DNA of 64,000 bases, taken from an uncultured Gammaproteobacteria bacterium (GTDB lineage Bacteria; Patescibacteriota; Microgenomatia; JALYQM01). The stretch covers positions 443,364 to 507,363 of the forward strand of contig CAYOFQ010000001.1 in the NCBI GenBank assembly GCA_964403585.1, in the 5' to 3' direction. A program made the position numbers and the translations under genes. A model generated the notes under the pieces. The model ran no database searches and was not told the DNA's origin. It worked only from the letters and a program-made list of their open reading frames with translations. Shown here piece after piece: positions 15,318-50,317 of this stretch. Each line of letters begins with the position of its first letter. The stretch's first letter is position 1.

Positions 15318-15818
15318 ATGCAACAAACATCTCACGATAGCGAAACACCCGCACACGGACAGCAGGTTATAACTGCCTGTGCATTTATACACCATAATTT
15401 TGACGGTATCGAAAAAGTTTTTTTACCGAAGCGGGCTGCCGGCAAAAAATTCCTGCCCGGAGTCTACGAGCTCCCCGGTGGACACATCGATTTCGGTGAA
15501 GATATTATCTCCGGTTTGAAACGTGAGATCAAAGAAGAGTTTGCTATGGGGGTAACGATCGGCGATCCTTTTGGCGTATTTACTTACACAAATGAGGTAA
15601 AAGGATCACATTCCATTGAAGTAATCTATTTTGCTTCCTTCACCGATCCGATTGAAAATATTCGGCTTAATCCCGAAGATCATTCGGAATTTGGCTGGTT
15701 CAGGGAAGATGACCTAACCAAAATGCTGTCTGAAAACAAACAGGAAAGTGACCCGGAATTTGTAATTATCAGAAAAGGCTTTGCGTTATTACAGCACAAC
15801 AGCCCCGACTTTGGATGA
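15318..15818 (+). CDS. Nudix hydrolase
   Basis: LPGGHIDFGEDIISGLKREIKEEFAM Nudix box. Confidence 0.75.
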   Translation: MQQTSHDSETPAHGQQVITACAFIHHNFDGIEKVFLPKRAAGKKFLPGVYELPGGHIDFGEDIISGLKREIKEEFAMGVTIGDPFGVFTYTNEVKGSHSIEVIYFASFTDPIENIRLNPEDHSEFGWFREDDLTKMLSENKQESDPEFVIIRKGFALLQHNSPDFG

Positions 15819-16121: not shown

Positions 16122-16321
16122 TTAACCGAACTTATCTTATTCAGCTTAATTTTATAGCCTGAATCACTGGCATTCGCTAATTCTCCTCGTATAGATTCCT
16201 CAGTAATGGAAGCGGTGGCAAAATCGACAGTTTGTGTAGCTTGACGATCAGCCGTGCAACCAACCAAGAAGAGTATTAATATAGGCACAAAAAGTGCTTT
16301 TTTAAGTATCTGAATTAACAT
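16022..16321 (-). CDS. Small lipoprotein-like ORF (uncertain; overlaps HK remnant in another frame)
   Basis: Signal peptide plus lipobox LFLVGC; the C-terminal half overlaps the histidine-kinase remnant, so it may be spurious or chimeric. Confidence 0.25.
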   Translation of the reverse strand: MLIQILKKALFVPILILFLVGCTADRQATQTVDFATASITEESIRGELANASDSGYKIKLNKISSVKPLSILPVPRRLLFRSVMRVLKLRLLLKTLVSA

Positions 16322-16444
16322 ATACTATCCTTTTTAAATAACTATAGGTTAATATATATTTTATACTATATATAAGGGATTATCAAGAGTAAATGTTAAG
16401 GATAATATGTTGTAGAAAACTGTAGAAAAATCCATAAATAAGCC

Positions 16445-16669
16445 ATGCTTTCAAGAACTAAGTTCATGGAAATAATGGGAAATAACATCAAAAGCGTACG
16501 TACAAAGAAGCGTATTTCTCAAGAAGAACTTTCAGCACAATGTGGGTTCTCTCGGACCTATATCAATCTCATCGAATCTGCCAAACTTACCCCATCCTGT
16601 TACAACGTATATCGTATTGCTAAGGCTCTCAATATCACAGTTGATGAGCTTTATCCGTCTACTGTCTAA
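16445..16669 (+). CDS. XRE-family HTH transcriptional regulator
   Basis: …ISQEELSAQCGFSRTYINLIESAKLTPSCYNVYRIAKALNITVDELY (HTH_3). Confidence 0.75.
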   Translation: MLSRTKFMEIMGNNIKSVRTKKRISQEELSAQCGFSRTYINLIESAKLTPSCYNVYRIAKALNITVDELYPSTV

Positions 16670-16703
16670 TCCTTGATATAATACAGCGAGAATTGAACGA
16701 AAA

Positions 16704-17072
16704 ATGAATAATTCGAACTTAAAACCATTCACAGTTAGGGATGATCCTCGAAGGCTTAATGGAAGACCAAAAGGAGCAAAAAACCTAAAAACAATCATTC
16801 GAGAGTTAGAGAATGAAGAGTTTGATTGGAATAAAATCCCGCAGCAGAGTAAAGGATTTAGTCACTATCTAAAAAGAGTTGGCTCTCCTTGGCGAGCCAT
16901 AGTAATGCGAGCAATGCTTGATGCCATTAACGGCAACAAAGATGCAAGAGAATGGCTTACAAAAATAGCTTTAGACGATAAAAGTCAAACCGAAATTGAA
17001 ACTCGAGAACCGATTATTATGAGCAATATTGAACCTAGATTCAATAACCTTAGCTGCCCAGATATCGATTAG
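16704..17072 (+). CDS. Hypothetical phage/island protein (GRPKGAKN motif)
   Basis: 122 aa; RRLNGRPKGAKN motif reminiscent of small phage DNA-binding proteins; no firm family. Confidence 0.4.
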   Translation: MNNSNLKPFTVRDDPRRLNGRPKGAKNLKTIIRELENEEFDWNKIPQQSKGFSHYLKRVGSPWRAIVMRAMLDAINGNKDAREWLTKIALDDKSQTEIETREPIIMSNIEPRFNNLSCPDID

Positions 17073-17074
17073 TT

Positions 17075-17821
17075 ATGACTATTCACTTTATCTACAAGAA
17101 AACAACCAAGTGGGGAATCATAACCGAACTCAGATATATAAATAGCTATGGCGAAATTTATGAAATTGATAAACATGCAATCGAAAAAGTAACATTTAAT
17201 TTTTTAAAAGCATTAATTAAAAATAAAAATTTCGTTCAGGAAATACGTAATATAAGAAAAAACTCAGCTATTCCGTTGGACGGATACGATATTTTAAATA
17301 AGCAAAATAACCCTGATGATAATAGGCCAGGCAAGTGGATCTCGGAATTAAGAAAAAAGATTGACGACAAACTTGTTTTAAAGCTAAAAAAAGACTATAG
17401 AATACCAAACATGTTATATTCTACTTTAAAGGATATAATTTTAATGAATATTGTCCACTTACCTCTTCCTAAAATAGCGTTAGATGTTCCATATATCGGT
17501 TATGAAAATGTTAATCCTGATGCAATAAAAATAGTCATTAATACAAAAGTTGATCCTAAAACATTACATAGATTTATAGATGACAATTGGGAGGATATAG
17601 AGCAAGCGCTTAATAAGGAAGAAAGTAGTGAGATTAAAATCTCTGATAAAGCTCTAAAAATTCTCGAAATGAAGGATAAGGGATTAACGTATACGCAAAT
17701 AATGGATAAATTAAACGAATCTGGACAAGGAGAATATTACGACTCTGGATCAGTTAAACAATTGAACTTTAGAACTAACAAGCAAATTAACTCTCTCTCT
17801 AGTAACAAAAAAAAGCGGTAA
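17075..17821 (+). CDS. Hypothetical Lys-rich island protein with C-terminal HTH-like segment
   Basis: Very AT-rich coding; C-terminal …ISDKALKILEMKDKGLTYTQIMDKLNE… resembles resolvase/sigma-type HTH. Confidence 0.4.
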   Translation: MTIHFIYKKTTKWGIITELRYINSYGEIYEIDKHAIEKVTFNFLKALIKNKNFVQEIRNIRKNSAIPLDGYDILNKQNNPDDNRPGKWISELRKKIDDKLVLKLKKDYRIPNMLYSTLKDIILMNIVHLPLPKIALDVPYIGYENVNPDAIKIVINTKVDPKTLHRFIDDNWEDIEQALNKEESSEIKISDKALKILEMKDKGLTYTQIMDKLNESGQGEYYDSGSVKQLNFRTNKQINSLSSNKKKR

Positions 17822-18069
17822 CATTTGTTACACCAACATAAATTACTCCCTTTAAACTTATTCTCAGGTAATGTGTACTGGAATGACAACCCAGCAAGCA
17901 AAAGAATTACTTAACAAAACGGGCGTTACACTTGATGACGAAGAAATAGAAAAAATCATCATTTGTTTCAATCAAATTATTGAAATTGGATTCGAATTGT
18001 ATGAAGCGCAACAAGTTGAAAAAGAATGATTATCTTGTAAATTTCATACCCTCGCTTGATAATGATGCC

Positions 18070-19653
18070 ATGAAAAAATACGCTATTGCGTACATACGAG
18101 TAAGCTCCGAAGAGCAAATCACTAACTTTAGTTTAGAAAATCAAAAAGAGTACTGTGTAAAAGAGGCTCATCGGCAAGGCTTCGAAATAGTGGAAATATT
18201 TAGAGAAGAAGGTGTAAGCGCAAAAGATCTAAATCGTCCTCAAATGATTCGTTTATTTGAATATTGCAGAAAATACAAGGGTAAAATTTCAACATTATTT
18301 ATTTACAAAATCGATCGAATTTCTCGTAATACTTTAGACTTCCTTTCTTTAAAGAAAAGATTAGCGGGATACGGAATAAGGGTCATCCCTGTTACCGAAC
18401 AAACCGAAGATAATCCGGCAGGTGAATTTATAGAAACTATGTTAGCAGCTAATGCCACTATGGATAATGCGACGAAAAGTATTCGTACATTAGATGGTAT
18501 GAAGAAGCGGGTCGAATCTGGATATGCTTTAGGCAGACCTAGAGTAGGTTATATTGTTTCAAATATAGAAGGTGACAAAGCTCATAATCCAGACCCTGAA
18601 CAATTTCATCTAGTTAAAAAGGCATGGATAGAAATGTCGACTGGAACATATACATTAGAATCCATAATTCCAGTAATGCAAAAACTTGGAATAGTAATAA
18701 AAATTGGAAATAGAAGAATACCTATAACTAGGAACCAACAAACACAAAGAATCTTTAGAGACAAATATTATGCAGGGTATGTGGTAAGTAATAAGTTCAA
18801 GATAAATAAAATTGGCAATCACTCGCCCATGATAAGTGAGGAATTATATTATAAAGTTCAAGGAATTATAGATAGGAGATCTTACTCTGCGGGTGTTAGC
18901 CATAATAAGCAAAACGAAGATTTCCCTTTAAGAGGCGTACTATGCGGTGAGTGCGGTAAACCAATGACAGGATCGTGGAGCCGGGGTAGAAAGAATAGGT
19001 ATGCGTACTATTATTGTGGTCAAGGTAGGCACAAGGCTCCATCAATTCCAAAAGATCAATTTGAGAGCGAGTTTGTCGACTGTTTACTGCAAATTCAACC
19101 CAAGAAAGAGTTTATATCTTTATTTAGTGCAATGCTAAAAGAAAAATGGGAAAGTAGATATCAGTATCTAAAGGACTTAAAAAAAGCTGCTGAAAGAGAA
19201 CTTGATGCATTGTATGAAGCACGGAGGAGACTTGTGGAGAAAAACCTGTCAGGCTTATATTCTGATGAAATTTTTCAAGAACAACTTACACTGATAGAAG
19301 ATCAAATATTAGTTAAAAAGATATCAAAATCTGAAACTGAGTTAGACGAGATTGATATAGATACTATTGTAAATTTTATGAATAATTTCTTAGCAAATAT
19401 TCATAAAGCATGGATCGATGGAAACTTATATCAGAAAAGAGTTCTATTCGGTTCTATATTCCCCAAAAACATTACTTACACAAAAGAAGGATATAGAACC
19501 ACGGAAATAGGGCTTCCATTCAGGTTAATCAGTGAATTGGAAGATACTTCTACCTCGTCGTGGGTCAACTGTTGGACAAACTTCGTACCTCCTTCGTACA
19601 GTATACTAGCCTCTATCCAATACCCTCCTACGCCCCAGTTGTATAACACGTAA
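18070..19653 (+). CDS. Large serine recombinase (integrase)
   Basis: MKKYAIAYIRVSSEEQ catalytic Ser motif, …IYKIDRISRN…, recombinase domain, CGECGKPMTG…YYYCG zinc ribbon, C-terminal coiled coil; the ORF extends upstream to 17980 but the catalytic motif favours the 18070 start. Confidence 0.8.
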   Translation: MKKYAIAYIRVSSEEQITNFSLENQKEYCVKEAHRQGFEIVEIFREEGVSAKDLNRPQMIRLFEYCRKYKGKISTLFIYKIDRISRNTLDFLSLKKRLAGYGIRVIPVTEQTEDNPAGEFIETMLAANATMDNATKSIRTLDGMKKRVESGYALGRPRVGYIVSNIEGDKAHNPDPEQFHLVKKAWIEMSTGTYTLESIIPVMQKLGIVIKIGNRRIPITRNQQTQRIFRDKYYAGYVVSNKFKINKIGNHSPMISEELYYKVQGIIDRRSYSAGVSHNKQNEDFPLRGVLCGECGKPMTGSWSRGRKNRYAYYYCGQGRHKAPSIPKDQFESEFVDCLLQIQPKKEFISLFSAMLKEKWESRYQYLKDLKKAAERELDALYEARRRLVEKNLSGLYSDEIFQEQLTLIEDQILVKKISKSETELDEIDIDTIVNFMNNFLANIHKAWIDGNLYQKRVLFGSIFPKNITYTKEGYRTTEIGLPFRLISELEDTSTSSWVNCWTNFVPPSYSILASIQYPPTPQLYNT

Positions 19654-19747
19654 TGCGCTCTCCTGCACAAAAGGGTTAAAGCGGGTGACAATGGATATAT
19701 CAGAAACGCCCTTGTTTGTTGATGCTTTACATAGTATTACAGAGTAA

Positions 19748-21487
19748 ATGAAGCTTCGTCATCTGTCGATTAAAAACTTTAGAGGTATAAAGACGCTCGA
19801 CTGGAATATAGCCGAAAGCTTCGTGTGCCTATTAGGTGCAGGCGATTCGACTAAATCAACCATCTTGCTAGCCATTGAATACGTGCTATACCCTAACTTC
19901 GCACTATATATCCAAGATGCCGATTTCCATAATCAAGAGGTTGACACTCCAATAGTTATCACCGCCACCATAAGTGATATCCCTGATGATCTTACTAACG
20001 AAAAGAAGTTTGGACTAAGATTAAGAGGCTGGAACCCTATTGATTACACTACTCATGATGAGCCCTTTGAAGGAGATGAAAAAGCGCTAACGATACAACT
20101 CCTAGTAAGCAGCACGTTAGAACCACACTGGAGTGTGATTACAGAAAGGCATGCAGAAGGAGCAGCAATATCACACATTGATAGAGAAAAGCTAGGTGCT
20201 TCTCCGATAGGAACATTTCTAGAACGAGATTTATCATGGTCAAGGGGATCACCTTTACTTCGTTTAACAGGTAATCTAGATAATGCGGATCAAATAATGT
20301 TGTCTGCACGAAGAGGCTTAGGTCAGAGCATGCTAGCCAATCAGCAGACGAAAACTTGGGTAGAACAATGTACAAGTATAGGAGAAGTCGCTAAATCTAT
20401 TGGTGTCCACCCTAAAAATAATCTTATACCATCCCTTGATTTTAAGTCACTTTCTAATCTAAACTCAACACTCACACTATATGATGGAAACATACCGACG
20501 CGACAATACGGGCTTGGGAGCAAACGACTTTTAAACATGTCGATTCAACAGCAAAGTGTAAGTAATGGTGCACTGATACTGGTGGATGAGATTGAACATG
20601 GGCTCGAACCGCATAGGTTAAGGCATTTAATAAGGTATCTTAGGAGATCCTTATCCATCGTCGATTCCACTCGTATCGGTCAGGTAATATTCACCACTCA
20701 TTCAAGTACAAGTATAGTTGAGAGCAAGGCTAAAGAGTTACACTGTGTTATAGATAATGAAGGTGAAATAACGATAGTACAAGTCGGACAATCAATTCAA
20801 GATAAGGTTAGGCGGTGTCCAGAAGCACTTCTAGGAAGGAAAATAGTTATAGGTGAAGGTAAAACTGAATTTGGTGTAATCCGAGGGCTTGATATTGCCT
20901 GGGAGGCAGACGGTGATACCTGCTTTGGTACTTTAGGTATTGTTCCAGTAGATGGTGGTGGTTATACAGTAGCGCCATCTATTGCTATTGAGTTCGCTAA
21001 ACTTGGTTATCAAGTAGCTGTAATGGTTGATAGTGATCAGTCTATAAGTGATGAGCATCGAAAAGGTATTGAACTCCATAAAATATGTTTAATAGAGTGG
21101 GAAGATAAAACTAGCATCGAAGAAAGATTCTTCTTAGATATGCCGTGGTCTATGGTAAAAGAAGAACTGAGATACATAATAGAGAATCACCCAGATACGA
21201 ATAGGCTAAGCATTATACAGGCCATTATGGTGCAGCTCAATATAACAGGGTCTCCTAAAGATTGGGATATAGACCTAAATCTATGGATTGATAAAGGAAA
21301 AGAGGAGAATGACTTAAGGATAGCACTCGGTAAAGCCGCACACAAAGGATCTTGGTATAAACACCCAAACACAGGCATAGATTTAAGCCAACCCTTAGGA
21401 CATAAAATTGGATTATCCTTACATGACATGAAGGGAACCGATACTTACAATAAACTACTTAAATTGAAACACTGGTTATATGAGTGA
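19748..21487 (+). CDS. gajA: Gabija GajA-like OLD-family ATPase/TOPRIM nuclease
   Basis: N-terminal MKLRHLSIKNFRGI, P-loop GAGDSTKST, Walker B/LH region LVDEIEHGLEPHRL, C-terminal TOPRIM IVIGEGKTEFGV…VAVMVDSDQ; 579 aa; 8-bp overlap with the downstream helicase gene. Confidence 0.75.
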   Translation: MKLRHLSIKNFRGIKTLDWNIAESFVCLLGAGDSTKSTILLAIEYVLYPNFALYIQDADFHNQEVDTPIVITATISDIPDDLTNEKKFGLRLRGWNPIDYTTHDEPFEGDEKALTIQLLVSSTLEPHWSVITERHAEGAAISHIDREKLGASPIGTFLERDLSWSRGSPLLRLTGNLDNADQIMLSARRGLGQSMLANQQTKTWVEQCTSIGEVAKSIGVHPKNNLIPSLDFKSLSNLNSTLTLYDGNIPTRQYGLGSKRLLNMSIQQQSVSNGALILVDEIEHGLEPHRLRHLIRYLRRSLSIVDSTRIGQVIFTTHSSTSIVESKAKELHCVIDNEGEITIVQVGQSIQDKVRRCPEALLGRKIVIGEGKTEFGVIRGLDIAWEADGDTCFGTLGIVPVDGGGYTVAPSIAIEFAKLGYQVAVMVDSDQSISDEHRKGIELHKICLIEWEDKTSIEERFFLDMPWSMVKEELRYIIENHPDTNRLSIIQAIMVQLNITGSPKDWDIDLNLWIDKGKEENDLRIALGKAAHKGSWYKHPNTGIDLSQPLGHKIGLSLHDMKGTDTYNKLLKLKHWLYE

Positions 21488-22895
21488 AAACAGTATAGAG
21501 ACTATTATTAACGCTAAACGTGCTGCAATAGTAGCACCTGCTGGTTGTGGAAAGACTGAAACAATAGTAAAAGCTGTCGCAATTTCACCAGGAACGCAAC
21601 TTGTACTAACACATACTCATGCTGGTGTCGATTCACTTCAAAATAGGTTTAAAAAACATCAAGTAAATCACGAAAAATACAGGGTAGACACAATAGCAGG
21701 ATTCGTAACACGTTATATAGAAGCATATCCTGTCATGAGTGGCTGGATTGAAGTTAAGGGAGAGAAGAATAACTGGAACTATATGTATGAAGCTATGTCA
21801 CAATTGCTAGTTAATAGCATCATAAGGAAAGTTATACAGCGAACATATCAAGGTATATATATTGATGAATACCAGGATTGCACCTTAAGACAGCATTTTG
21901 TGTGTGATCAACTCGCCAACATCATACCATGCAGAGTCTTCGGAGACCCCTTGCAAGGGATTTTTGATTTTAATGATCAAATAGTCCAATGGGACACACA
22001 TGTATTTTCGTCATTCGACAAACTTGTTGAGTTGCAAACGCCTTGGAGATGGTACAAGTCGACAAATGAACCTGACAAGAGACTCGGGAATTGGCTGCTT
22101 GACTGTAGAGAGCATCTACTAAATGGCTGGCCAATAGACCTACAGCAAGCGCCACGAGATTCAGTTACCTGGGTAGATTCGAGTAAGGATGGGTATCTGT
22201 CTCTTATTCGGCAGTGTCGTCTATTGTTAAATGTTAGTGGGAACGTTATGGTTTTATTGAATCAGGATAAACAGTGCCATAGTCTGGCTCGTAGCCTTAG
22301 TGGAAAGTATCAATCAATGGAAGAAATGGAGTCGAGAGCACTTAAAAAATATAGTAAGCTACTTGATGATACTACGGGCCAAAAGCGGGTTTGTGTCATC
22401 ATAGATTTTGCTGTCGAATGCATGACCGAATCAACAGTATTAAAAAAAATACGCGAAGCTTTTATTGAAGGCAAACAATACAAGCTGCAAAAGAAGTATC
22501 CTCAACTTTTAATCCACCTTGAAGCTGTAATAGCTGCTGACAGCTGGTCGAATGTTCTTGCTGCTATTGATGGAATAGCTGCCTACATTAACGGTAACAT
22601 TTTTCGTAGAGAACTATGGAGTGAAATGAAACGAGCTTTGTTGTATGCAGAACAAAACCAGTCAACAAGCTTGCAGGAGAGTGCAGAATATGTAAGGGGC
22701 AGAACACGACTAATAGGTAGGTACATGCACTCACATATGATGTCACGCACTCTTTTGATTAAAGGACTTGAGTTTGATCATGTTGTTATTGCTGATGCTG
22801 AAAGCATGAATAAAGAAAATTTGTACGTTGCGCTTACACGGCCTAAGCATCAGCTTATAATCTTATCCAAAACTCCTATGCTACAGCCAAGGTAG
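21480..22895 (+). CDS. gajB: Gabija GajB-like UvrD-family helicase
   Basis: Walker A APAGCGKTE, IYIDEYQD (motif II), FGDPLQGIF, C-terminal VALTRPKHQLIILS; 471 aa. Confidence 0.7.
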   Translation: MSENSIETIINAKRAAIVAPAGCGKTETIVKAVAISPGTQLVLTHTHAGVDSLQNRFKKHQVNHEKYRVDTIAGFVTRYIEAYPVMSGWIEVKGEKNNWNYMYEAMSQLLVNSIIRKVIQRTYQGIYIDEYQDCTLRQHFVCDQLANIIPCRVFGDPLQGIFDFNDQIVQWDTHVFSSFDKLVELQTPWRWYKSTNEPDKRLGNWLLDCREHLLNGWPIDLQQAPRDSVTWVDSSKDGYLSLIRQCRLLLNVSGNVMVLLNQDKQCHSLARSLSGKYQSMEEMESRALKKYSKLLDDTTGQKRVCVIIDFAVECMTESTVLKKIREAFIEGKQYKLQKKYPQLLIHLEAVIAADSWSNVLAAIDGIAAYINGNIFRRELWSEMKRALLYAEQNQSTSLQESAEYVRGRTRLIGRYMHSHMMSRTLLIKGLEFDHVVIADAESMNKENLYVALTRPKHQLIILSKTPMLQPR

Positions 22896-23890
22896 TGCGC
22901 AATCTCTATTCCATATCTTCCTATGCTCCAGTGGTATAGCACCACCCCGGTAGACACCCCCAAATATACAAAAACGGGTCAGGCCCCTCGACTTACTATA
23001 TAAAACACAAGCACCCACCCCCGCCTTAAGTACTGGTACCTCTTTAGAAAGACGGTACTATCCACTACCATAATGTTATATTAGGGAGAGGAGTGTCAAA
23101 CGATTGTTTAGATTGGATCAAAATACAGCAGAAGTTATCCTGGGATACCCCGGCTGAGCCCAGAAAAAGAACTGAGTTCAAATACGGGAAAACTTCGGTT
23201 GTTTCTATATCAAACTATATCACATCGAAGTTTGGTATCTTGCGGATAACCAGAGCTTGTTTATCGGTACAGCTGCTAATCAAACCTATGTTCCTTTAGA
23301 TGCGGTGGGATGAAACTCGGGGTTCTGCATTTTTCGCCCGTCCTTAGCTCTGAGTTCTTACAACGTTTTGTTGCGTCCCCGGCATAGCTTTGCCGTAAAG
23401 GCTAACTCAGGTCAGATAGCCACTATCCACTCACAAGATTCAACTCTAACCATCAACTGCTTTTGCAGTATCCCAGTCGGGTGACACTTCTGCCATTATT
23501 CCACTTTGCTAGAGTTGCTGTCGGTCCTGTTTATCCCGTCATGCACCGAATGTTGGACGGATCTAAAGTGCTTGTTTCCGTTTAAGATTTGGGGGCGGTT
23601 GTCGTTATCTGCTATCGGAGAAAAGTCAGGTATCGTCGGGGACAACCATTCATGTTTATGAAGATAACTTAGCATACACTCTGGAAGATGTCAAAATGGG
23701 ATAGTCATAACAAGCGATTGTTGTAGTTTCGGCTTCGTTTTGCCTTCATCAGATAAGGATTCGTTGAACCTTATAACTACCTCCCTACTACCTAGCGCAA
23801 ACATTGTCTTTAAAATCATGGTGCCACAAGGGCGACCACAACTCAAAACTTTGTCTGCGGTAAGCAGTAGGGAGGCAGTCAGATCAAATC

Positions 23891-24337
23891 CTAGCCGCAG
23901 CTCGTGACCTCGACTGTGAAGTCGGTGCCAGGGAGACGGCCACTCGGCGCGGTGAAGGCGACGGAGATACCGTAGTCGTTATCGGAAACGAACGAGATCC
24001 GGTCAGCGGATGCGCCGCGCACGGGGAACGGAGAGTCGAGCTGGTACAGCGGGAAGTCGCTTGTCATGCGCTTGGCCTTCACGCCATTGACGCTGAACGG
24101 TGACAGCCCGGTGTAGTTAGCCATCACTGGCTTAGTGTGGCCGGTGATGAGCACCTCGTCGCCCGTATGAAGTGATTGGTCGATGCGGGGCGCAGCGGCC
24201 GCCGTAGGGTCGTTCGTCAGGGTTGTGATCGTTGTCGGGCAACCGCCACCGCCGTCAGCGAGTGCCGAGGGGGCGAAATACACAGCCGACGCGGCGAGCA
24301 TGGCGATGAGCGACAGGGTTGCGATGAGCTTACGCAT
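23891..24337 (-). CDS. Secreted hypothetical protein, GC-rich xenolog
   Basis: Signal peptide MRKLIATLSLIAMLAASAVYFAPSALA; coding sequence visibly GC-rich relative to flanks. Confidence 0.55.
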   Translation of the reverse strand: MRKLIATLSLIAMLAASAVYFAPSALADGGGGCPTTITTLTNDPTAAAAPRIDQSLHTGDEVLITGHTKPVMANYTGLSPFSVNGVKAKRMTSDFPLYQLDSPFPVRGASADRISFVSDNDYGISVAFTAPSGRLPGTDFTVEVTSCG

Positions 24338-25392
24338 TGTTATCTCCTTGTGGTATTGAACTCAAAGACAGACGTTAGAAAGCAGGAGTGCTTCCTAGTT
24401 GCGGCATACGCAACCTTTCTGACCTATTTTCATAGGCTTTCTCTTTACTATTTGGGACACTTCAGATAGAAACAGAGCAGTTTTTATCTCAAATGTCCCA
24501 ACTAGTTAGGGAGGACTTATCTTCCTATTGCTTACATAGATAGTAGGGAATTGTTGGAGCTTTGAACTTATTATGCTTTACCTCTAAGGCGATGATTGGG
24601 CGTCTATTTGGCTTAGCAAGCTCAAGGCTCCAATTTTCCCTACTAAAATAGTTTTAAGGTACTAGCTTACTTGAAGTAAGCTTAGCTCATAAGAATTATG
24701 CTCAGAGTGAGCCTAGTTGCTTTACGAGCAGCCTATATAATACCACATCTCATCAAAAAATACTATAGGATATAATACATAGAGTATAAAATATACTCAT
24801 TTAAACTATTGATTGTTCGCTATCGGTTACTTGAAGTATTTGCTGTAGCAGGCATTTTGTTCGCTACTAATTGAACTTGTACACGCACTTATGCATGTTG
24901 TGTCACGCTACAACCTTTGTCACACTCATCCACTTTTCTCTTGGCATCACTCAATCACATGTCATAGAGAAGGTTCTTTACGTGTCCTATTTCACGCTTG
25001 CCAATATTATTGCAGCACTTAAAGCTGATCCCCAAGACATTCTTCCGCTCGCGTAGTATTACCTATTGACTATCATCAGTCCTCTTAGTACCCTAGCAAC
25101 AATTAAGAGAAAAAGATCCGGCAAGAGTTACATCTGAATACATTGCGTACTAATTCTTCCTAAACAGCAGAACAACCTAGGCGTCCATACACTTGAACGC
25201 GCGAAGGGGGGAAACCTTAATACCAGTACTGTTTAGTTGCAAGAGGTGTACTTCTCATTAAAAGCATCGCGTTACAGACACGCGTTGGAGAAGTATGCCT
25301 CTTTTTTGTTATTTCCGCCTCACGCCTTACAGTTGTCATGATCCTCCCTAAGTCATTGTGCTGCTTATTTTTATCACTACGAAAGGGCATAT

Positions 25393-25806
25393 ATGAAAAA
25401 TAGTACATGTGTTATTTACCTCAGAACTTCAAATCCAGAAGAGTCGTCATACGACGCTCAACAAAAGATCTGCGAAAAGTATGCTCGAGAGCACAGAATG
25501 TCCGTAAGGGCTGTGTTTAAAGATGAGACATCGACGATAAGAATACAACAAAGCGCAGTGTTTAATGAGATGCTTAAATTCATCGAAGATCACCAGATCG
25601 ACCATATCGTGGTTGCACATGCTGATAGACTAGCGCGTAAGCTGATAGATGCAATATTGCTTGATGAGTTAGTTGCATCAAAGGGAGCCTCCATCAAAGC
25701 TGTGGAACACTTCAAACGATCTGTAAAAGAAAGATATATCGTACATTCGCTGCTTGCAGATTATTATGCAACACAATTACAGGATAGAAACGAGGTGAGC
25801 ATTTAG
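25393..25806 (+). CDS. Serine recombinase catalytic-domain-only protein (truncated resolvase)
   Basis: CVIYLRTSNPEES…HIVVAHADRLAR resolvase N-domain; no DNA-binding domain; 137 aa. Confidence 0.55.
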   Translation: MKNSTCVIYLRTSNPEESSYDAQQKICEKYAREHRMSVRAVFKDETSTIRIQQSAVFNEMLKFIEDHQIDHIVVAHADRLARKLIDAILLDELVASKGASIKAVEHFKRSVKERYIVHSLLADYYATQLQDRNEVSI

Positions 25807-26169
25807 TGTGCTAGTTATGAAGGGGGTCAGAGTAAGCTACTTCTCTGACCCTTATGATCGTACTGTAGCTTTTACTGAAAAAGATAGCCTCTGGCAGTGC
25901 GGATAGTTGATCTTGAAACATAATAAGTCCAAGCGTAACTCGTAACAGTATTAAGCGTGTACTTCTCTTTTCGTTATTTTCAACGCAATAAGGAGTACAT
26001 TACATGTTTACCGACGAAGAGTTATCTCGTTTCCGTGAACTATATCTTCTACATCACGGAACATTATTGTCAGAAGAAGAAGCGTTAGCTATCGCTACAC
26101 CCCTCAGTGAATGCTTTAAGGCCATTGCGAAACCATTTATACGGCCATACAATGCAAAGGAGAAACAAA

Positions 26170-27966
26170 ATGATGAATGAAATAGAACAGCCAGTAGAAT
26201 ATAAACGTCGTTCCAGTGATGACGATCATCAGATCGCAAGCATACCTTCTCAAGAGCGGGCTTTGAGAGACGGTATCCCCAACTATTCAAAGCTTGCATT
26301 TATAAAAAAGTTTGAGGAGAGTAAATCAGCTAAGAAACCAGGTAGACCATTCTTTAATGAGATGGTCGAGTTGCTTGAGTCGGGCAAAGCAAAGAGCATT
26401 GTGGTGTGGCATCTTAACCGCCTTGCACGTAACCCTGTTGATGGTGGACGCATAATCTGGGTAGTACAAAATTACGGTGTAAAGATTCACACGCCAGGCA
26501 AGACGTATACAAAGGACGAGCTTATTCTGTTGTATGTCGAGTTTGGCATGGCTAATCAATTTATCAACGATTTGCAGAAAACAACGAAGCGGGGACTAGA
26601 AGATAAAGTCTTATCAAAGCAAGCACCACAACTCGCTCCAGTAGGATACCTCAACAACACACTAAAGCGGCAAGGGGAACGTGACATTATTTCAGATGAA
26701 AAGCGATTTAATACGGTGAGAAAGATGTGGGACCTACTTCTCTCGGGCAACTACAACCCAAAGCAGATCTTCCTTATTGCAAAGGACGAGTGGTGCTTTA
26801 CTTGTAAAGACGGTCATCCTCTTTCTCGTTCCCGAATTTACGAGATGTTTCGAAACCCTTTCTATATGGGCAGGTTCAAACGGAATGGCGAAGTGCATGA
26901 CGGTACTCATCCACCGATGGTCACACCTCATGAGTTTTCATTAGCACAAAAGATTTTAGATGGTCATGGCAGACCACGAAAACGCACCAGAGAGATTATC
27001 TATAATCCACTTTTAAAATGTACTTGCGGTTCCAGTGTAACAACGGAAGAACGTTACCGTAAAATCTGCCCATCGTGCCATCACAAATACAATGCAGAAG
27101 TACACGCAAAGTGTCCAAAATGCCTTACAAAGGCTCCAGAAAAGACAACCCACTTCGCATACTGTCACTGTGATAGAGGCAGAGATAGCTCATGCACACA
27201 GCCACATATAACGATCAAAGACCTTGAAAAGCAGATTGATGAACTATTATCAACTATCGAGATACATCCAGATTTTGTTAAATGGGCGATGGATCACTTG
27301 CGGAGAGTTAACGCAGAAGAGGGGAGCTTTGTTCAATCAAAGCTCTCTTCTCTCAATGACCGGATCGTAGCTATTACACGACTTGAAACATTGTTGTTTG
27401 AAAAGTGGGCGAGTGAATCAAACGCTGATGGCAGCCTTATCTCTGATGAGCAATATAAAACACGCAAGAACAACTACGCAGACGAAAAGAAAACCTTACA
27501 CGAACAACTTAATGCTACGCATTACAGTCATGACAACTGGCTCGAAACAGCAGAGAAGACTTTTGTGTTTGCACGAAACGCCCGTTACTGGTTTGCACAA
27601 GGAGACAAGATTCAGAAGAGAGCAATCATACAAGCACTTGGTTCGAACCTGATACTAAAAGATCGAAAACTGCATTTAGATCTGCAAAAACCCTTACAGT
27701 ACATCCAAGAAGCGAAGATTCTGATCGAGTCGGCAAATGATAACTTCGGACCCGCAGATAGTGTAGTAATAAAGGGAAAAAAGTCTGATTTAGACTTTGA
27801 AAATCTCGTTGGGGGTGATCGACGGGATTCGAACCCGCAACCAGCAGCTCCACAAACTGCTGCTCTACCATTGAGCTACGACCACCATAAGTTCACAAAA
27901 AGCCCAGATTTCGGGCTGAACTCACGTGAGAGTATAACAAAATTCCGGGCTAAAGTATATATTTGA
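26170..27966 (+). CDS. Large serine recombinase (integrase) adjacent to tRNA-His
   Basis: MMNEIEQPVEYKRRSSDDDHQ…SIPSQERA catalytic region, VVWHLNRLARN, recombinase domain, Cys-rich zinc-ribbon region (CTCGS…CPSCHH…CPKC), C-terminal coiled coil; the ORF has no stop until 27966 and reads through the antisense tRNA-His, so the true C-terminus is probably near 27800; the upstream 26107 start is probably over-called. Confidence 0.75.
   Translation: MMNEIEQPVEYKRRSSDDDHQIASIPSQERALRDGIPNYSKLAFIKKFEESKSAKKPGRPFFNEMVELLESGKAKSIVVWHLNRLARNPVDGGRIIWVVQNYGVKIHTPGKTYTKDELILLYVEFGMANQFINDLQKTTKRGLEDKVLSKQAPQLAPVGYLNNTLKRQGERDIISDEKRFNTVRKMWDLLLSGNYNPKQIFLIAKDEWCFTCKDGHPLSRSRIYEMFRNPFYMGRFKRNGEVHDGTHPPMVTPHEFSLAQKILDGHGRPRKRTREIIYNPLLKCTCGSSVTTEERYRKICPSCHHKYNAEVHAKCPKCLTKAPEKTTHFAYCHCDRGRDSSCTQPHITIKDLEKQIDELLSTIEIHPDFVKWAMDHLRRVNAEEGSFVQSKLSSLNDRIVAITRLETLLFEKWASESNADGSLISDEQYKTRKNNYADEKKTLHEQLNATHYSHDNWLETAEKTFVFARNARYWFAQGDKIQKRAIIQALGSNLILKDRKLHLDLQKPLQYIQEAKILIESANDNFGPADSVVIKGKKSDLDFENLVGGDRRDSNPQPAAPQTAALPLSYDHHKFTKSPDFGLNSRESITKFRAKVYI
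27810..27886 (-). tRNA. tRNA-His (GTG) with encoded G-1 and CCA
   Basis: Minus strand G-GTGGTCG…anticodon loop TTGTGGA (GTG)…T arm GGTTCGAATCC…CGATCAC-C-CCA; full cloverleaf pairs by hand. Confidence 0.85.
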
Positions 27967-37359: not shown

Positions 37360-39831
37360 ATGTATAATGCAGTTCACATGAGACGTGGCGAAGAAATTTT
37401 TGATCCAGGGCGACTTGAAATAAACCGGCAGCTGGCAATAAGTAGATTACTCCGTGCCTTAGATACCCCACATGAACGAGCATTGCGCGAACACCAACAT
37501 ACCATGCTGGAAAAACTCCACGCCTTCTTTTCTGGATCAACAGATGGCGAACCGAATACCTCGGGGTATATAAGCGCAGCTATGGGCGTCGGTAAATCTG
37601 CAGTTATGGTAACCGTTGCCGAAATTCTCGGCATGCGTACTGTTGTGCTTTCTAATAATCGAAGAGTATCAGACCAAAATAGAGCAGCCGCAGAATTCTT
37701 CACTCCTAAAATGCGAGTTAGTTCATTCGATGGACGTAAACAAGATCTGAGCGGCCAAACAATATTTTCCATTTATCCGTCAATGCTTAGTGAACTTAAG
37801 AGGAAGAGAGTAAACGGTATACGGTCACCATTTGAAGACATGGAGTTGGTGATAAGTGACGAAGTGGATACAGGACAAGGTGAAGAAACCTTCCAGATAT
37901 TCCGTGAGCTATTCCCAAATGCGTTATTTATCGGTTGTACGGCAACTCCATTCTTTGAACAAATTGAATACTATATAAGAAAAGGACTCATTAACCCAAA
38001 AGAGCGATGGGTAGGAATGTTCCGTAATGAAATCCACGAGCTTACTTTAGAAGAAGCCTGGCTACGCGAGATTCTTGCTCCGGTTGAAATTCACTTGCTG
38101 CGTACCTATACCGAAATCCCAGAGTTGGATGTATTAGGCAATGGAGAATATTCCCAACCACAGCTCGAGCTTTCTGTCGATACAACTTCACGTAACGCGA
38201 GACTAGACGCTATTATGTTAGGAATCTCTGCAATTCCTGATACTGTAAATGTTGGCCCATTAGCATTAAAAGAGCTGCGAGAATTGCATCAACGTGTGGA
38301 TGGAGAACCGACTTTGATTCATTCGGTATCGATTGGACATGCTGAAAGAGTCGCCCGACGATTACGACAAGCTGGACTGCGAGTTGGCACGATCCACAGT
38401 AAGATTACTGATGATGCAGATAGACCAATCCGAGACGAGGATAGAAACGAAGTTATTGACGAACGAATCGCCAATTTCGAAGCAGGGAAAATTCAGGTGC
38501 TCACTGGCGTTAACATGTTAGGGCGAGGCATTGATGTTCCGTCAGCTCGCGTAGCTATTCATACCAAGCCAAGATTGTCCGCGCGGGCTTTGATTCAGGA
38601 ATTTGGTCGAATCACCAGACCTTCACCTGAAACAGGAAAATTAATGGGTTTTGCAATCCAATTTGTAGACCAGTGGAGTATGTTAGCGCAATCGGGACTG
38701 TTGATACCTAACGTTATAAAACTGGATTTCATTGAAACTCATAAACAAAGATATTCTTCTCTTCGGAGGAAAGTAGAACCAGGAGAAAAAATACCAGTGG
38801 ATGCGACGAAAAGAAATTATGTCGAAGTAACGGGAGTACATGTCGAATCCTTATTGGGGGAGGTAGAGATTATTGAAACGGTCCGTAATAGATTTTTTAA
38901 TGCCACTCCGGAGGAAATAAATCGTGCGATACACCATATATATACTATCAATGCAGAAAAAGACCCTGATTGTGGCATATATGTCCTTACTAAAAAAGTT
39001 CTCCGCCAACTTCCAAGTAAAATTCCAGTCGAAGTCACCGATCGACTATTGAAAGTTATCAAGGACAATCGTGAAACATTACGAACTATGGATGGTGATA
39101 CTGACCTTAGCGGTCGTTCAAGAGCACAAATCCAAGGCGAAATAGATGAAGCCACTCGCGCAGTTATTGGGGTTAACTTACGAGCAGTTATGACCGTTGC
39201 TGATTACTTTGAGGAACTGCCTGCCGAAGACTATGATGATATTTTTATGACTGCCCTGAGTGCTATGGATGGTGTGATTAAAGGGAGTTACTCAAGCATT
39301 AGCAGCACAATAAACGGTCAAGCCAAAGAGCGAGTTCGTGAATACCTTGCCATGAAGGAAAACGTCCCGGAGTTTGTTGTCGAATATGCTAAGTTTCGGC
39401 TCATAATTGAAGAAGTCGGTAAGTTAGTTGAGGATGACACCTTAGAAGGAGAACGCCTCGACCGACGTAAAATTGAAATTGTTATGAAAACTGGTATTAG
39501 TCTTGATCATCTTGAAGATTATATTTCGTACCTCGTCAAAATGCAGTTTGCAATAACAAAATCGTATCAACAGGAGGGGAACGAAGGAGAGGAAGTCCGT
39601 AACGAATTAATACGTGCAGATATTGATTGGGCCCTCTCTAAATGTACTGAAACCGAACAAAAAGTGTTGAAGTTACGATTCGGACTTGATGATGGGCACC
39701 AACGAACACTAGAAGAAGTTGGGAAAGAATTTGGTGTTACCCGCGAGCGTATTCGCCAAATTGAAGTGAAGGTGTTACGTAAGCTCAGACATCCACAATT
39801 CAAACGTCGATTACACCCGCATATTGAATAA
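37360..39831 (+). CDS. SF2 helicase fused to sigma-70-family C-terminal module (degenerate region 2, region 3-like, canonical region 4.2)
   Basis: Helicase motifs [38 protein letters not shown]; C-terminus …[46 protein letters not shown] is near-identical in pattern to RpoD region 4.2; upstream [12 protein letters not shown]…[19 protein letters not shown] aligns by eye to regions 2.1-2.2 without the conserved Y/WW. Confidence 0.7.
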
Positions 39832-48027: not shown

Positions 48028-48052
48028 AAATACTTAAATTTTAAGAGACACT

Positions 48053-49087
48053 TCAAGTAGTACGAAGCTCTTTTATCATGTTCCAAACTTCTGGGTGGTC
48101 TTGATCTTTATTATCAGGAATTCTTAATAGCTTGACATAGGTCCCCTTGCCAACATGATTATCAATAGACCGAGCTAGTTGGGGGACCAATGACGTGTCT
48201 CGACGAGCTGCTTGAACGTTTTGTACGAACTCCTCGCGCTCTTTGTCTGAGTAGAATCTCAATACTGATTCAAATAAACTGCCCGCCAAAGCAGTACGCG
48301 ATATAAGTGTTAATCTAAGATTCTTATGAACGGGGTCTTCGTAAACTACTTGTGCGTACTTTGGTTCAATTAAGATACTTTCCCCAAATAAATTATTAGG
48401 GGCAGAAAATGAAAGGAACCCATGAGGATTAGGTCGCTTATCAAGTTGTTTATAGATAAGTAAGTTTCGCTCCGCAAGCTTATCAGCTAAGAAAGCAGTG
48501 CCCACAACTTCGCGAAATTCTGTCTGCATATACGCCACAAATCCTTCTTCGAGTACCCATGGGCTTAGTGGGGAATTTGGGTTAAGGATTTCAAATCCTT
48601 GTCTGGAATAAATATTTGTCACCTTATTTTCTCTTATACTGTACACATTGGCAAAATGGCTTTCACCCGTCAAATGAAGACTCTCATGAAATCCACGGGA
48701 GACTAATTCAAGCACTGTATCTTGATACGGATCTGCCACTACACCGGCACCATGAATGTACCCAGCGTACCCTTTCTCAACTTTCTTGAATGGATGACGC
48801 ATTGCGGCAGTAAATTGATCCTGATCATCTTTAAAAAGAATAACAGGTGCTTGAACCTCGTCCAACGGAATATGAAAACGCTCAGCAATAAACGGCGTGA
48901 TCATAGCTAATGCTCGCTGTATATTTTCTGGTAACTTATGAGTATGATCGTACTGTTTTAGAATCTCACGATCAGCAGACGCAGACACGATTGTAACGGC
49001 ACCTTCCGCGATAAAGCGTGGATTATCATGATGAATTGGATGTATACGAAACTCTGGTCGGGATGAAAAATCGGATTCTTCTGTCAT
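48053..49087 (-). CDS. Hypothetical protein
   Basis: 344 aa, no recognised family. Confidence 0.4.
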   Translation of the reverse strand: MTEESDFSSRPEFRIHPIHHDNPRFIAEGAVTIVSASADREILKQYDHTHKLPENIQRALAMITPFIAERFHIPLDEVQAPVILFKDDQDQFTAAMRHPFKKVEKGYAGYIHGAGVVADPYQDTVLELVSRGFHESLHLTGESHFANVYSIRENKVTNIYSRQGFEILNPNSPLSPWVLEEGFVAYMQTEFREVVGTAFLADKLAERNLLIYKQLDKRPNPHGFLSFSAPNNLFGESILIEPKYAQVVYEDPVHKNLRLTLISRTALAGSLFESVLRFYSDKEREEFVQNVQAARRDTSLVPQLARSIDNHVGKGTYVKLLRIPDNKDQDHPEVWNMIKELRTT

Positions 49088-49321: not shown

Positions 49322-50317
49322 TTATCGTTTCTCGTAGGTGACCGTCTCGTCGTCGTCGAAGGGAGCCCCGCCGCCCGCATCGAACTCGCGCTTGAGTTCC
49401 TCGATACGAGCGATCGCGCCCTTGATCAGCTGCTTGGGATCAGCGCCGATCAAGTTGATGCCGGGTATCAACCCCAGCACCAGGCCACTAATCATATCGA
49501 TCAGCTCTTGGTCGGTCACCCCTGCCGCAAGCATGCCGAGCAGCTCGAAGAGGCCGGCCATCATGAGCGAATCCGCGCTCGTGCCACCCATGTTCTCAAG
49601 GGTTAGCATAAGGTTGGTATTGCCTTTGAACGACGTAAGGGCGAGCACGATCCGCCGATCTGTTCCCAGCCGCGGCTGCATGGCCCACGTCCTCGTTTCC
49701 GCACCGAGAACACTGTCCCCGATCCGGAGGCGGTAGTCATACGCGTTCTCGCTACCGTCGACGAGGCTTCCAGTCCAGCGCGCGATGCGCCTAAGATGAG
49801 AGGATTGCTGGCCGAACAGGTCATGGGTATCGTCCGCGAGGAGCATGAGCGCGAACTCGATCGGGTGCATATTCTGCACCTGCTTGAGGTCGCGCTGTGC
49901 TCCCGCCAGTTCGGCAGTAATCTCTTCAACCTGCGCCTCCAAGCCGGGCACGCGGTTTGCCTCCGAACGGGCTTCTTCCAGCAACATAGTCGTCGATTGG
50001 TGAGCTTCGATCGCAGCCGTATGGGTGGCTTGCAGCTGTTCTAGCTCTTGGGCCAGTTGCTGACGTAGCTCCTCAGCTTCCCGAGCTGCGGTGTCCGCCT
50101 GCTCAATTCGCTGGTTCAACTCCTGGTTGGTGGCCGTGAGCTGAGCGTTCGCTGTGGCCAGCTGCTCATTCGTGGTGGCGAGCTGCGCCTCGGCGGTAAC
50201 AGCCGCATCCAGCAGCTGCCGCAGCTTGAGAACCATCCCTTTCAGGGTGTCACGCTGTCTCCACAGCGGCCCTCCTAGTGCGTCGATATTCGTATTCCGT
50301 ACGTCAAGTTCTGACAT
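49322..50317 (-). CDS. GC-rich coiled-coil protein (xenolog-like), unknown function
   Basis: N-terminal heptad-rich LATTNEQLATANAQLTATNQELNQ… coiled coil; coding region visibly GC-rich with multi-frame shadow ORFs typical of high-GC DNA. Confidence 0.5.
   Translation of the reverse strand: MSELDVRNTNIDALGGPLWRQRDTLKGMVLKLRQLLDAAVTAEAQLATTNEQLATANAQLTATNQELNQRIEQADTAAREAEELRQQLAQELEQLQATHTAAIEAHQSTTMLLEEARSEANRVPGLEAQVEEITAELAGAQRDLKQVQNMHPIEFALMLLADDTHDLFGQQSSHLRRIARWTGSLVDGSENAYDYRLRIGDSVLGAETRTWAMQPRLGTDRRIVLALTSFKGNTNLMLTLENMGGTSADSLMMAGLFELLGMLAAGVTDQELIDMISGLVLGLIPGINLIGADPKQLIKGAIARIEELKREFDAGGGAPFDDDETVTYEKR

What the first reader, a model, noticed from the sequence alone, without database searches (positions are those of the whole stretch)
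19748..22895. Complete Gabija (GajA OLD-ATPase/TOPRIM + GajB UvrD helicase) anti-phage system as island cargo
A 579-aa protein with an OLD-family ATPase N-domain (IKNFRGI, GAGDSTKST P-loop, LVDEIEHGLEPH) and C-terminal TOPRIM (IVIGEGKTEFGV, VMVDSDQ) overlaps by 8 bp a 471-aa UvrD-like helicase (APAGCGKTE, IDEYQD, VALTRPKHQLIILS). This is the two-gene Gabija architecture (class 2 OLD nuclease with partner helicase). It sits next to a large serine recombinase and an XRE regulator inside a tRNA-associated island, so it looks like horizontally acquired defense. Defense islands are little documented in small-genome, host-dependent lineages.
Basis: partly seen in the sequence, partly recalled or inferred. 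Interest (0 to 1): 0.6.

Follow-up and report, generated by a model that had tools for sequence, protein, structure and literature searches.

The report
Divergent two-gene Gabija defence operon
The two overlapping genes are an intact Gabija-type anti-phage system (an OLD-family ATPase-nuclease plus a UvrD-like helicase) of a widespread but experimentally untested clade, sitting in a recombinase-rich variable region next to a tRNA gene; this is a correct but ordinary finding.

Summary
ORFs 19748-21487 (579 aa) and 21480-22895 (471 aa) overlap by 8 bp and carry every quoted motif.

The pair is very far from characterised Gabija (about 15% identity; single-sequence search fails). RefSeq calls plasmid members only "ATP-binding protein".

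The context claim needs correcting. The adjacent XRE and 557-aa serine recombinase form a separate 3.3-kb low-GC insertion about 190 bp upstream of gajA. A syntenic relative has gajAB without them. The shared frame is NUDIX, gajAB, small resolvase plus ~600-aa serine recombinase (ORF 619 aa), and tRNA-His.

Host dependence is not shown. The genome contig is 1.57 Mb and the nearest named relatives are Chloroflexota.

Verdict: new member of a known kind, low interest.

The parts
19748..21487 (+). gajA-like gene: class 2 OLD-family nuclease, 579 aa. ABC ATPase with P-loop G30..K36 S37 T38, signature G255-L-G257-S, Walker B D280 E281, H-loop H318. Toprim with E370, G405, D428-x-D430, followed by a C-terminal helical region 457-578.
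21480..22895 (+). gajB-like gene: SF1A UvrD/Rep/PcrA-type helicase, 471 aa. Walker A A21-G-C-G-K25-T26, LTHTHAG (41-49), DEYQDC (129-134), GDPLQ (155-159), KGLEFD (428-433), YVALTR (449-454).
   Evidence: PADLOC GajB PDLC04173 E=6.3e-139, residues 7-470 on profile 4-469/471. Pfam UvrD-helicase and Viral_helicase1 pass their cut-offs; UvrD_C_2 scores 24.8 bits, below its 27.4-bit cut-off. Profile against PDB: BcGajB 5e-11, then UvrD 1e-5. AF2 pLDDT 93.8. Foldseek: UvrD 2e-15, BcGajB 1.7e-12. Motif columns invariant in 40 homologues.
21480..21487 (+). 8-bp overlap ATGAGTGA (gajB start codon and gajA stop codon), suggesting translational coupling and a single operon.
   Evidence: Related loci show zero to small gaps or overlaps between the tblastn matches of A and B. 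The Klebsiella plasmid homologue pair overlaps by 4 bp.
19558..19747 (+). Conserved upstream leader or promoter region of gajA, shared with the syntenic relative L001. Its left edge marks the right junction of the inserted XRE-LSR element.
   Evidence: blastn similarity between window and L001 begins at 19561. The three-way alignment shows window/L001 identity from about 19558 to the ATG. The sigma-70 promoter scan was not informative.
16300..19557 (+). Context, not part of the system: about 3.3-kb low-GC (0.33) insertion with XRE HTH (16445..16669), two unknown ORFs (16704..17072, 17075..17821) and a large serine recombinase (17980..19653, whose last ~32 codons run into the flank). The left limit is approximate.
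   Evidence: Pfam HTH_3, Resolvase/Recombinase/Zn_ribbon_recom. PHROG phrog_95 integrase 2.8e-79. GC 0.334 against 0.429 for the window. No counterpart in L001.
25393..27966 (+). Context: small resolvase-domain protein (25393..25806) and a second large serine recombinase (ORF 26107..27966, likely start about 26170). These are conserved with L001 (73-81% aa) and abut or overlap tRNA-His. This is the probable integrase end of the variable region that holds gajAB.
   Evidence: Pfam Resolvase/Recombinase. tblastn and blastn against L001. PHROG integrase.
27810..27886 (-). tRNA-His(GTG), lying wholly inside the 3' end of the serine recombinase ORF on the opposite strand. It is the right-hand landmark of the variable region.
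   Evidence: ARAGORN. Rfam tRNA 67.6 bits. Sequence.

Best explanation
This is an intact two-gene Gabija (class 2 OLD nuclease + UvrD-like helicase) anti-phage operon of a divergent, widespread clade.

Shown here:
- Protein A is an ABC-ATPase/Toprim OLD-family protein with all nucleotide-binding and metal-binding residues intact.
- Protein B is an SF1A helicase with all ATPase and helicase motifs intact.
- The two genes overlap.
- They are inherited together across many phyla and on conjugative plasmids.

Inferred by analogy with B. cereus Gabija (PMC10781630, PMC8136825, PMC10568477):
- GajA and GajB assemble into a hetero-oligomer (4:4 in B. cereus).
- The GajA Toprim site cuts DNA by two-metal catalysis.
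- Cutting is held off by nucleotide binding to the ABC ATPase at normal NTP levels.
- Cutting is released when phage replication and transcription deplete nucleotides.
- The outcome is destruction of phage (and host) DNA and abortive infection.

The operon sits in a variable, recombinase-rich region between a NUDIX gene and tRNA-His and was most likely acquired horizontally with that region. The neighbouring XRE + serine recombinase block is a later, separate insertion.
For: - PADLOC end-to-end GajA/GajB matches.
- Family profiles reach BcGajA (2e-13, through the Toprim motifs) and BcGajB (5e-11, best PDB hit).
- Catalytic residues E370, G405 and D428/D430 map to BcGajA E379, G409 and D432/D434. 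They are invariant in 45 homologues, as are K36, D280/E281 and H318.
- In GajB, G22, G24, K25 and T26 of the P-loop, the DEYQD box, and Y449, V450, T453 and R454 of motif VI are invariant in 40 homologues.
- gajB lies immediately downstream in 78 of 82 loci. Three exceptions are contig ends and one is a truncated gajA.
- The clade is in 541 GTDB species representatives and on 307 plasmids, 193 of them conjugative.
- Mobility: GC is 0.398 against 0.429 for the window. There are three serine-recombinase genes and a tRNA in 12 kb. The 61%-identical L002 system sits in a different chromosomal context but with the same accessory module as L001.
Against: - No member of this clade is known to me to have been tested for phage defence.
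- Identity to BcGajA/GajB is only about 15% in structural alignments, and single-sequence phmmer finds no GajA in the PDB.
- By sequence profile and Foldseek, protein A is no closer to BcGajA than to class 1 Thermus OLD or to PtuA.
- The P-loop is non-canonical: Thr replaces the second Gly in 36 of 45 members.
- Class 2 OLDs from Burkholderia and Xanthomonas are reported as non-specific nucleases that ATP does not affect (PMC10568477). Nucleotide gating and sequence specificity may therefore not carry over to this clade.
- Complex formation was not modelled.
Confidence: 0.85

Rival explanations
1. A distinct OLD-helicase system that shares the Gabija gene architecture but works differently from B. 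cereus Gabija. Examples would be a constitutive or differently triggered non-specific nuclease as reported for BpOLD/XccOLD, a different oligomeric state, or anti-plasmid rather than anti-phage activity. It would then deserve its own subtype.
For: - Extreme divergence from BcGajA.
- Clade-specific P-loop GxGDS-T-KST.
- Clade-specific helicase signatures LTHTHAG and DEYQDC.
- The family profile does not reach the BpOLD/XccOLD fragments at E<=1, so this is a separate lineage of class 2 OLDs.
- PMC10568477 reports biochemical differences among class 2 OLDs.
- Frequent carriage on conjugative plasmids and none in phage records.
Against: - All catalytic and nucleotide-binding residues are conserved as in Gabija.
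- PADLOC already files the clade under Gabija.
- The review defines every OLD with a UvrD-like partner as GajA (PMC10568477).
Confidence: 0.12
2. A class 1 (stand-alone) OLD nuclease or generic ABC ATPase that merely happens to lie beside an unrelated housekeeping UvrD/PcrA-type repair helicase.
For: - By sequence profile and Foldseek the top PDB hit of protein A is class 1 Thermus OLD.
- Pfam sees only AAA_15/AAA_21 and no Toprim in the window protein.
Against: - The helicase follows directly in 78 of 82 loci across phyla, usually overlapping or within tens of bp.
- At 471 aa it is far shorter than housekeeping UvrD/PcrA (about 650-750 aa), and it is closest to GajB.
- Toprim is present by structure, with invariant E, G and DxD.
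- The C-terminal region matches the class 2 BpOLD fragment.
Confidence: 0.02
3. A non-defence role, such as DNA repair or replication or maintenance of the mobile element, as recently proposed for the archaeal OLD-family ATPase Cran1 in cell-cycle progression.
For: OLD-family proteins can have non-defence roles (PMC12796447, abstract seen). No defence assay exists for this clade.
Against: - Patchy distribution: 541 of 185,579 species representatives.
- Location in a recombinase-rich variable region and on plasmids between IS elements and a TIR protein.
- Different genomic contexts in close relatives.
- All of this is typical of defence cargo and not of core functions.
Confidence: 0.03

Closest known systems
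Gabija of Bacillus cereus VD045 (GajA/GajB; PDB 8SM3, 8U7I, 8J4T)
   Same: - Two-gene operon in the order OLD nuclease then UvrD-like helicase.
- Similar sizes: 579/471 aa here against 578/494 aa.
- ABC ATPase + Toprim with E, G and DxD catalytic residues at equivalent positions.
- Helicase with Walker A and DEXQD box.
   Different: - Only about 15% identity in structural alignment.
- phmmer finds no GajA and only a marginal GajB match (E=1.7e-3).
- The P-loop has Thr instead of the second Gly.
- The insert in the ATPase (dimerisation region, residues about 90-250) is modelled with lower confidence and may differ.
- No evidence here for a 4:4 complex, site-specific nicking or ATP inhibition.
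Class 2 OLD nucleases of Burkholderia pseudomallei and Xanthomonas campestris (PDB 6NK8 and related)
   Different: The family profile does not detect these fragments by sequence (E>0.7), so this is a separate lineage. Those enzymes are reported as non-specific and ATP-insensitive (PMC10568477), which shows that class 2 biochemistry is not uniform.
Class 1 OLD (Thermus scotoductus OLD, PDB 6P74; phage P2 Old)
   Same: Same ABC ATPase + Toprim fold. Top hit by profile (6e-14) and Foldseek (1.6e-16).
   Different: Class 1 enzymes are stand-alone. Here a helicase partner is strictly conserved. The region from the Toprim Glu to the C-terminus is about 210 aa, as in BcGajA (about 200 aa), which fits the longer class 2 type described in PMC10568477.
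Uncharacterised 'ATP-binding protein' + 'UvrD-helicase domain-containing protein' pairs on Klebsiella and other enterobacterial conjugative plasmids (e.g. pBM343.1, NZ_CP063940.1)
   Same: Same clade. About 31% identity over the full length for both proteins, the same motifs (CLIGPGDSxKST, DExExGLEP, EGxTE, DSD; AGCGKT, DEYQDC), overlapping genes, and a mobile context.
   Different: Canonical Gly before the P-loop Lys. The helicase lacks exact THTHAG and YVAxTR strings. The carrier is a plasmid rather than a chromosomal region.

Membership tests
OLD-family nuclease | N-terminal ABC ATPase with Walker A Lys, signature motif, Walker B Asp-Glu and H-loop His | tested here: met
OLD-family nuclease | C-terminal Toprim domain with invariant Glu, Gly and DxD metal-binding residues | tested here: met
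Class 2 OLD = Gabija GajA | [quoted passage not shown] | tested here: met
   8-bp overlap in the window. Partner directly downstream in 78 of 82 related loci and on a Klebsiella plasmid.
Class 2 OLD = Gabija GajA | Extra helical insert in or after the Toprim domain, making class 2 about 50 aa longer than class 1 | tested here: inconclusive
   Helical region 457-578 follows the Toprim core. The span from the Glu to the C-terminus is about 210 aa, like BcGajA. 164 of 204 residues of the class 2 BpOLD fragment superpose. The insert itself was not mapped residue by residue because model coordinates could not be inspected.
Gabija GajB | SF1A helicase with Walker A GK[ST], DEXQD box and motifs III, V and VI | tested here: met
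   AGCGKT, DEYQD, GDPLQ, KGLEFD and YVALTR; their core residues are invariant or nearly invariant in 40 homologues. Foldseek UvrD 2e-15 and BcGajB 1.7e-12. Profile best PDB hit is BcGajB at 5e-11.
Gabija system (PADLOC definition) | Both proteins match GajA and GajB HMMs and are adjacent | tested here: met
   PDLC04168 E=8.2e-157 and PDLC04173 E=6.3e-139, both covering essentially the whole protein and profile. DefenseFinder models were not available.
Gabija system (functional definition) | GajA-GajB hetero-oligomer (4:4 in B. cereus) | not testable with these tools
   No multimer prediction was available. It needs co-purification or AF-Multimer.
Gabija system (functional definition) | Protects against phage; nuclease gated by nucleotide concentration | not testable with these tools
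   Requires plaque assays and biochemistry. No literature on this clade was found.
tRNA-associated integrative island | Integrase next to a tRNA gene, with defined att or direct-repeat boundaries and an empty site in relatives | tested here: inconclusive
   A serine recombinase overlaps tRNA-His and the content varies against L001. No repeat of the tRNA exists and no convincing flanking repeats were found. No close relative with an empty site was found.

The most novel reading that the evidence does not exclude
This clade is a third, uncharacterised lineage of class 2 OLD/helicase systems. Its marks are the P-loop GxGDS-T-KST and the helicase signatures LTHTHAG and DEYQDC. It occurs in at least 541 species representatives and on at least 307 plasmids, including Klebsiella conjugative plasmids. 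Its triggering and nuclease behaviour may differ from B. cereus Gabija, for example no ATP gating, a different oligomer, or anti-plasmid activity. In that case 'Gabija' as currently annotated would lump mechanistically different systems together.
Probability: 0.15. Interest if true: 0.45.

Novelty: new member of a known kind. Interest (0 to 1): 0.25.

Why it matters
Gabija is one of the commonest bacterial defence systems, reported in about 8.5-15% of genomes (PMC10568477). One more instance is not news.

Three smaller points have some value:
- This clade is invisible to single-sequence comparison with the characterised B. cereus proteins, and RefSeq labels it only as 'ATP-binding protein' and 'UvrD-helicase domain-containing protein', even on clinical Klebsiella plasmids. 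A tested representative would anchor the annotation of several hundred loci.
- The host is an unnamed small-genome bacterium (1.57-Mb contig) whose nearest named relatives are Chloroflexota. This adds a data point on defence content in poorly sampled lineages.
- The locus shows nested mobile elements: a minimal XRE + serine-integrase element landed just upstream of a defence operon. This shows how such variable regions are built up.

Tried and rejected
- phmmer of single proteins against PDB: nothing for A and a marginal hit for B. Family profiles were needed.
- NCBIfam: no family reaches its cut-off for either protein.
- The look-up of encoding contigs for the window's own GajA: not on record.
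- The listing of cluster members: no names or accessions, so the organism was not identified.
- PriA search for taxonomy: the closest hits are unnamed 'bacterium' MAGs, and named hits (Chloroflexota) appear only at about 45% identity.
- Empty-site test with trehalase as anchor in metagenome contigs: best hits are 48% identity or less, so no close relative was found and there is no empty site to compare.
- Direct and inverted repeat search, and a search for a second tRNA-His fragment to delimit the island: only short matches at chance level.
- Sigma-70 promoter and terminator scan around the operon: counts are at shuffle expectation and uninformative.
- PADLOC, Pfam and PHROGs on the other island ORFs (122 aa, 248 aa, 148 aa): no hits, so there is no further recognisable defence gene in the window's island.
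- Phage records: no homologue.
- Literature on the origin of PADLOC models PDLC04168-04173: not found.
- Rejected: the 'class 1 OLD plus coincidental helicase' reading, and the idea that Gabija is cargo of the adjacent 557-aa recombinase.
Full report
**1. Observation**

The six-frame ORF list contains exactly the two ORFs described: 19748..21487 (+, 579 aa) and 21480..22895 (+, 471 aa). They overlap by 8 bp, ATGAGTGA, which holds the gajB start and the gajA stop. Both ORFs have thousands of full-length homologues, so they are real genes.

**2. What the proteins are**

PADLOC-DB matches protein A to GajA model PDLC04168 (E=8.2e-157; residues 1-578 on profile 1-568 of 570). It matches protein B to GajB model PDLC04173 (E=6.3e-139; residues 7-470 on profile 4-469 of 471). 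Older GajA/GajB models, Old, AriA and PtuA give only partial, much weaker hits.

Pfam sees AAA_15/AAA_21 in A but no Toprim. In B it sees UvrD-helicase and Viral_helicase1 above their cut-offs and UvrD_C_2 just below its cut-off. NCBIfam has no family for either protein.

Single-sequence phmmer against all PDB chains finds nothing for A and only a marginal BcGajB hit for B (E=1.7e-3). The pair is therefore very distant from the characterised system.

A 45-sequence family profile (A1) reaches Thermus OLD 6P74 (6e-14), PtuA (7e-14) and B. cereus GajA (2.3e-13). The GajA alignment runs from the ATPase C-lobe through the Toprim motifs. A 40-sequence profile of B (A2) has BcGajB as its best PDB hit (5e-11), ahead of UvrD (1e-5).

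**3. Structure**

The model of B (pLDDT 93.8) hits UvrD, Rep, PcrA and AdnB, and also BcGajB (1.7e-12).

**4. Catalytic residues**

PMC10781630 defines the BcGajA Toprim site as E379, G409 and D432/D434. Counting along the alignment, these correspond to window E370, G405 (in the GGG run 403-405) and D428/D430.

These residues are invariant in all 45 family members. So are K36 (P-loop), G255/G257 (signature), D280/E281 (Walker B) and H318 (H-loop), plus further residues E458, R460, D464 and K538.

One clade peculiarity is the P-loop G-x-G-D-S-T-K-S-T. Thr occupies the position of the canonical second Gly in 36 of 45 sequences, and Gly occupies it in only 3.

In B, G22, G24, K25 and T26 (within AGCGKT), L41 and L43 to G49 (within LTHTHAG), DEYQDC, D156 and Q159 (within GDPLQ), K428 and G429 (within KGLEFD), and Y449, V450, T453 and R454 (within YVALTR) are invariant; most remaining motif positions are nearly invariant. 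Both proteins therefore look catalytically competent.

**5. Linkage and distribution**

A pattern scan of 185,579 GTDB species representatives found 541 loci encoding a relative of A. They span Chloroflexota, Proteobacteria, Planctomycetota, Acidobacteriota, Verrucomicrobiota, Firmicutes, Cyanobacteria and Actinomycetota.

In 78 of the 82 loci held, a homologue of B lies immediately downstream on the same strand. Three of the four exceptions are contig ends, and one (L066) has a truncated gajA.

The clade is also on 307 plasmid records: 186 from Klebsiella, 193 predicted conjugative, at 31-36% identity. There it is annotated only as 'ATP-binding protein' or 'AAA family ATPase'. In K. pneumoniae pBM343.1 the pair (575 + 471 aa, 4-bp overlap) lies between IS elements and a TIR-domain gene and shares the clade motifs. 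No phage record carries it.

[quoted passage not shown] By that definition, and by PADLOC's, this is Gabija.

**6. Context**

The two closest homologues (63% and 61% identity) come from MAGs GCA_964525495.1 (L001) and GCA_964535655.1 (L002).

L001 is syntenic with the window at three blocks:
- NUDIX: window 15330-15761, 72% nt.
- gajAB with about 190 bp of upstream sequence: window 19561-22894, 65.5% nt.
- The small resolvase plus the ~600-aa serine recombinase (619-aa ORF) up to tRNA-His: window 25207-27889, 78% nt; recombinase 80-81% aa.

The window's XRE, 122-aa ORF, 248-aa ORF and 557-aa serine recombinase block (about 16.3-19.56 kb, GC 0.334) has no counterpart in L001. The window/L001 alignment upstream of gajA starts at about 19558, inside the last 32 codons of that recombinase ORF. 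This block is therefore a separate small integrative element that landed about 190 bp upstream of gajA. Gabija is not its cargo.

L001 and L002 share a module downstream of gajB: a 536/540-aa gene (50% identity), a 208-aa gene (81%) and an HTH gene (89%), followed by a serine recombinase. Their outer flanks differ, which indicates that the whole module is mobile. In the window only a roughly 50-codon remnant of the 208-aa gene survives (24845-24999, minus strand), so the stretch 22.9-25.4 kb has been remodelled.

gajAB has GC 0.398 against 0.429 for the window. No att-like repeats or second tRNA-His fragment were found, as is usual for serine recombinases. No close relative with an empty site could be retrieved. 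Horizontal acquisition is thus well supported, but the island limits remain undefined.

**7. Host**

The exact proteins occur on one NCBI contig of 1,573,555 bp. PriA's closest relatives (60-84% identity) are unnamed 'bacterium' MAGs. Named hits, at about 42-48%, are Chloroflexota (Anaerolineae, Dehalococcoidia). The nearest GajA relatives outside the immediate group are also largely from Chloroflexota.

The window encodes dihydroorotate dehydrogenase, an aminotransferase, dehydrogenases, photolyase, trehalase, glycosidases and several transporters. A small genome is supported. Host dependence is not.

**8. Mechanism**

Shown: an intact ABC ATPase + Toprim nuclease and an intact SF1A helicase, encoded as one overlapping unit and strictly co-inherited.

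Inferred from B. cereus work (PMC10781630, PMC8136825, PMC10568477): a GajA-GajB hetero-oligomer, two-metal DNA cleavage by Toprim, nuclease held inactive by nucleotide binding and released on nucleotide depletion during phage infection, and an abortive outcome.

Because BpOLD and XccOLD behave differently from BcGajA in vitro (PMC10568477), and because this clade has a variant P-loop, the gating step is the least secure inference.

**9. Verdict**

The system is a new member of a known kind, from a divergent clade that PADLOC already models but that (as far as I could find) nobody has characterised.

Corrections: the adjacent XRE/recombinase is an independent insertion, and the 'host-dependent lineage' framing is unsupported.

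Interest is low (0.25). The modest upside is that this under-annotated clade, which is also present on clinical Klebsiella plasmids, might differ mechanistically from canonical Gabija.

Noticed in passing
window 16300-19557: Minimal low-GC (0.33) integrative element: XRE HTH, two ORFs without any family hit (122 and 248 aa; weak sub-threshold DUF5681 and RepL hits) and a 557-aa large serine recombinase. The last ~32 codons of the recombinase ORF lie in flank DNA shared with L001, so the att junction lies inside the 3' end of the recombinase ORF.
   Followed up: partly
window 26107-27966 and 27810-27886: The second large serine recombinase ORF runs antisense across the entire tRNA-His gene and ends 80 bp beyond it. 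The same arrangement is seen in the relative L001 (18357-20252). A 137-aa resolvase-domain-only protein (25393..25806) and a conserved 54-codon ORF precede it.
   Followed up: partly
window 37360-39831: 823-aa protein that fuses an SNF2/ResIII-type helicase (ResIII, Helicase_C, SWI2_SNF2) to a C-terminal sigma-70 region 4 domain. It gives weak partial PADLOC hits to MzaA, PbeA and DpdF. This is an unusual architecture whose function was not examined.
   Followed up: no
L001 13229-14839 (-) and L002 13228-14850 (-): Conserved 536/540-aa gene directly downstream of gajB in both closest relatives (50% identity). It has no Pfam, PADLOC or PHROG hit and is absent from the window. By eye, the strings DYDLDCCQLLLAAKEL and CHDGFLL recall family-A DNA polymerase motifs A and C. 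This is untested.
   Followed up: partly
L001 7277-9764: The relative carries an additional AriA/PtuA-like ABC ATPase (482 aa; PADLOC AriA 5e-35, PtuA 7e-29) and a 310-aa partner with no hits, just upstream of its gajA. This suggests that the same locus accumulates defence genes in related genomes.
   Followed up: partly
window 22896-25392: About 2.5 kb after gajB with a higher GC (0.46) and almost no long ORFs. The exceptions are a 148-aa gene at 23891..24337 (-) that looks secreted by eye (N-terminal signal-like sequence, untested) and has no family hit, a ~50-codon remnant of the 208-aa gene of L001/L002 (24845-24999, -), and a 35-nt imperfect inverted repeat at 23776-23879.
   Followed up: partly
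window 48000-51000: Local GC peak (0.49-0.52 against about 0.43) covering two minus-strand ORFs (48053..49087, 49322..50317) with no Pfam hit. It may be another acquired segment.
   Followed up: no
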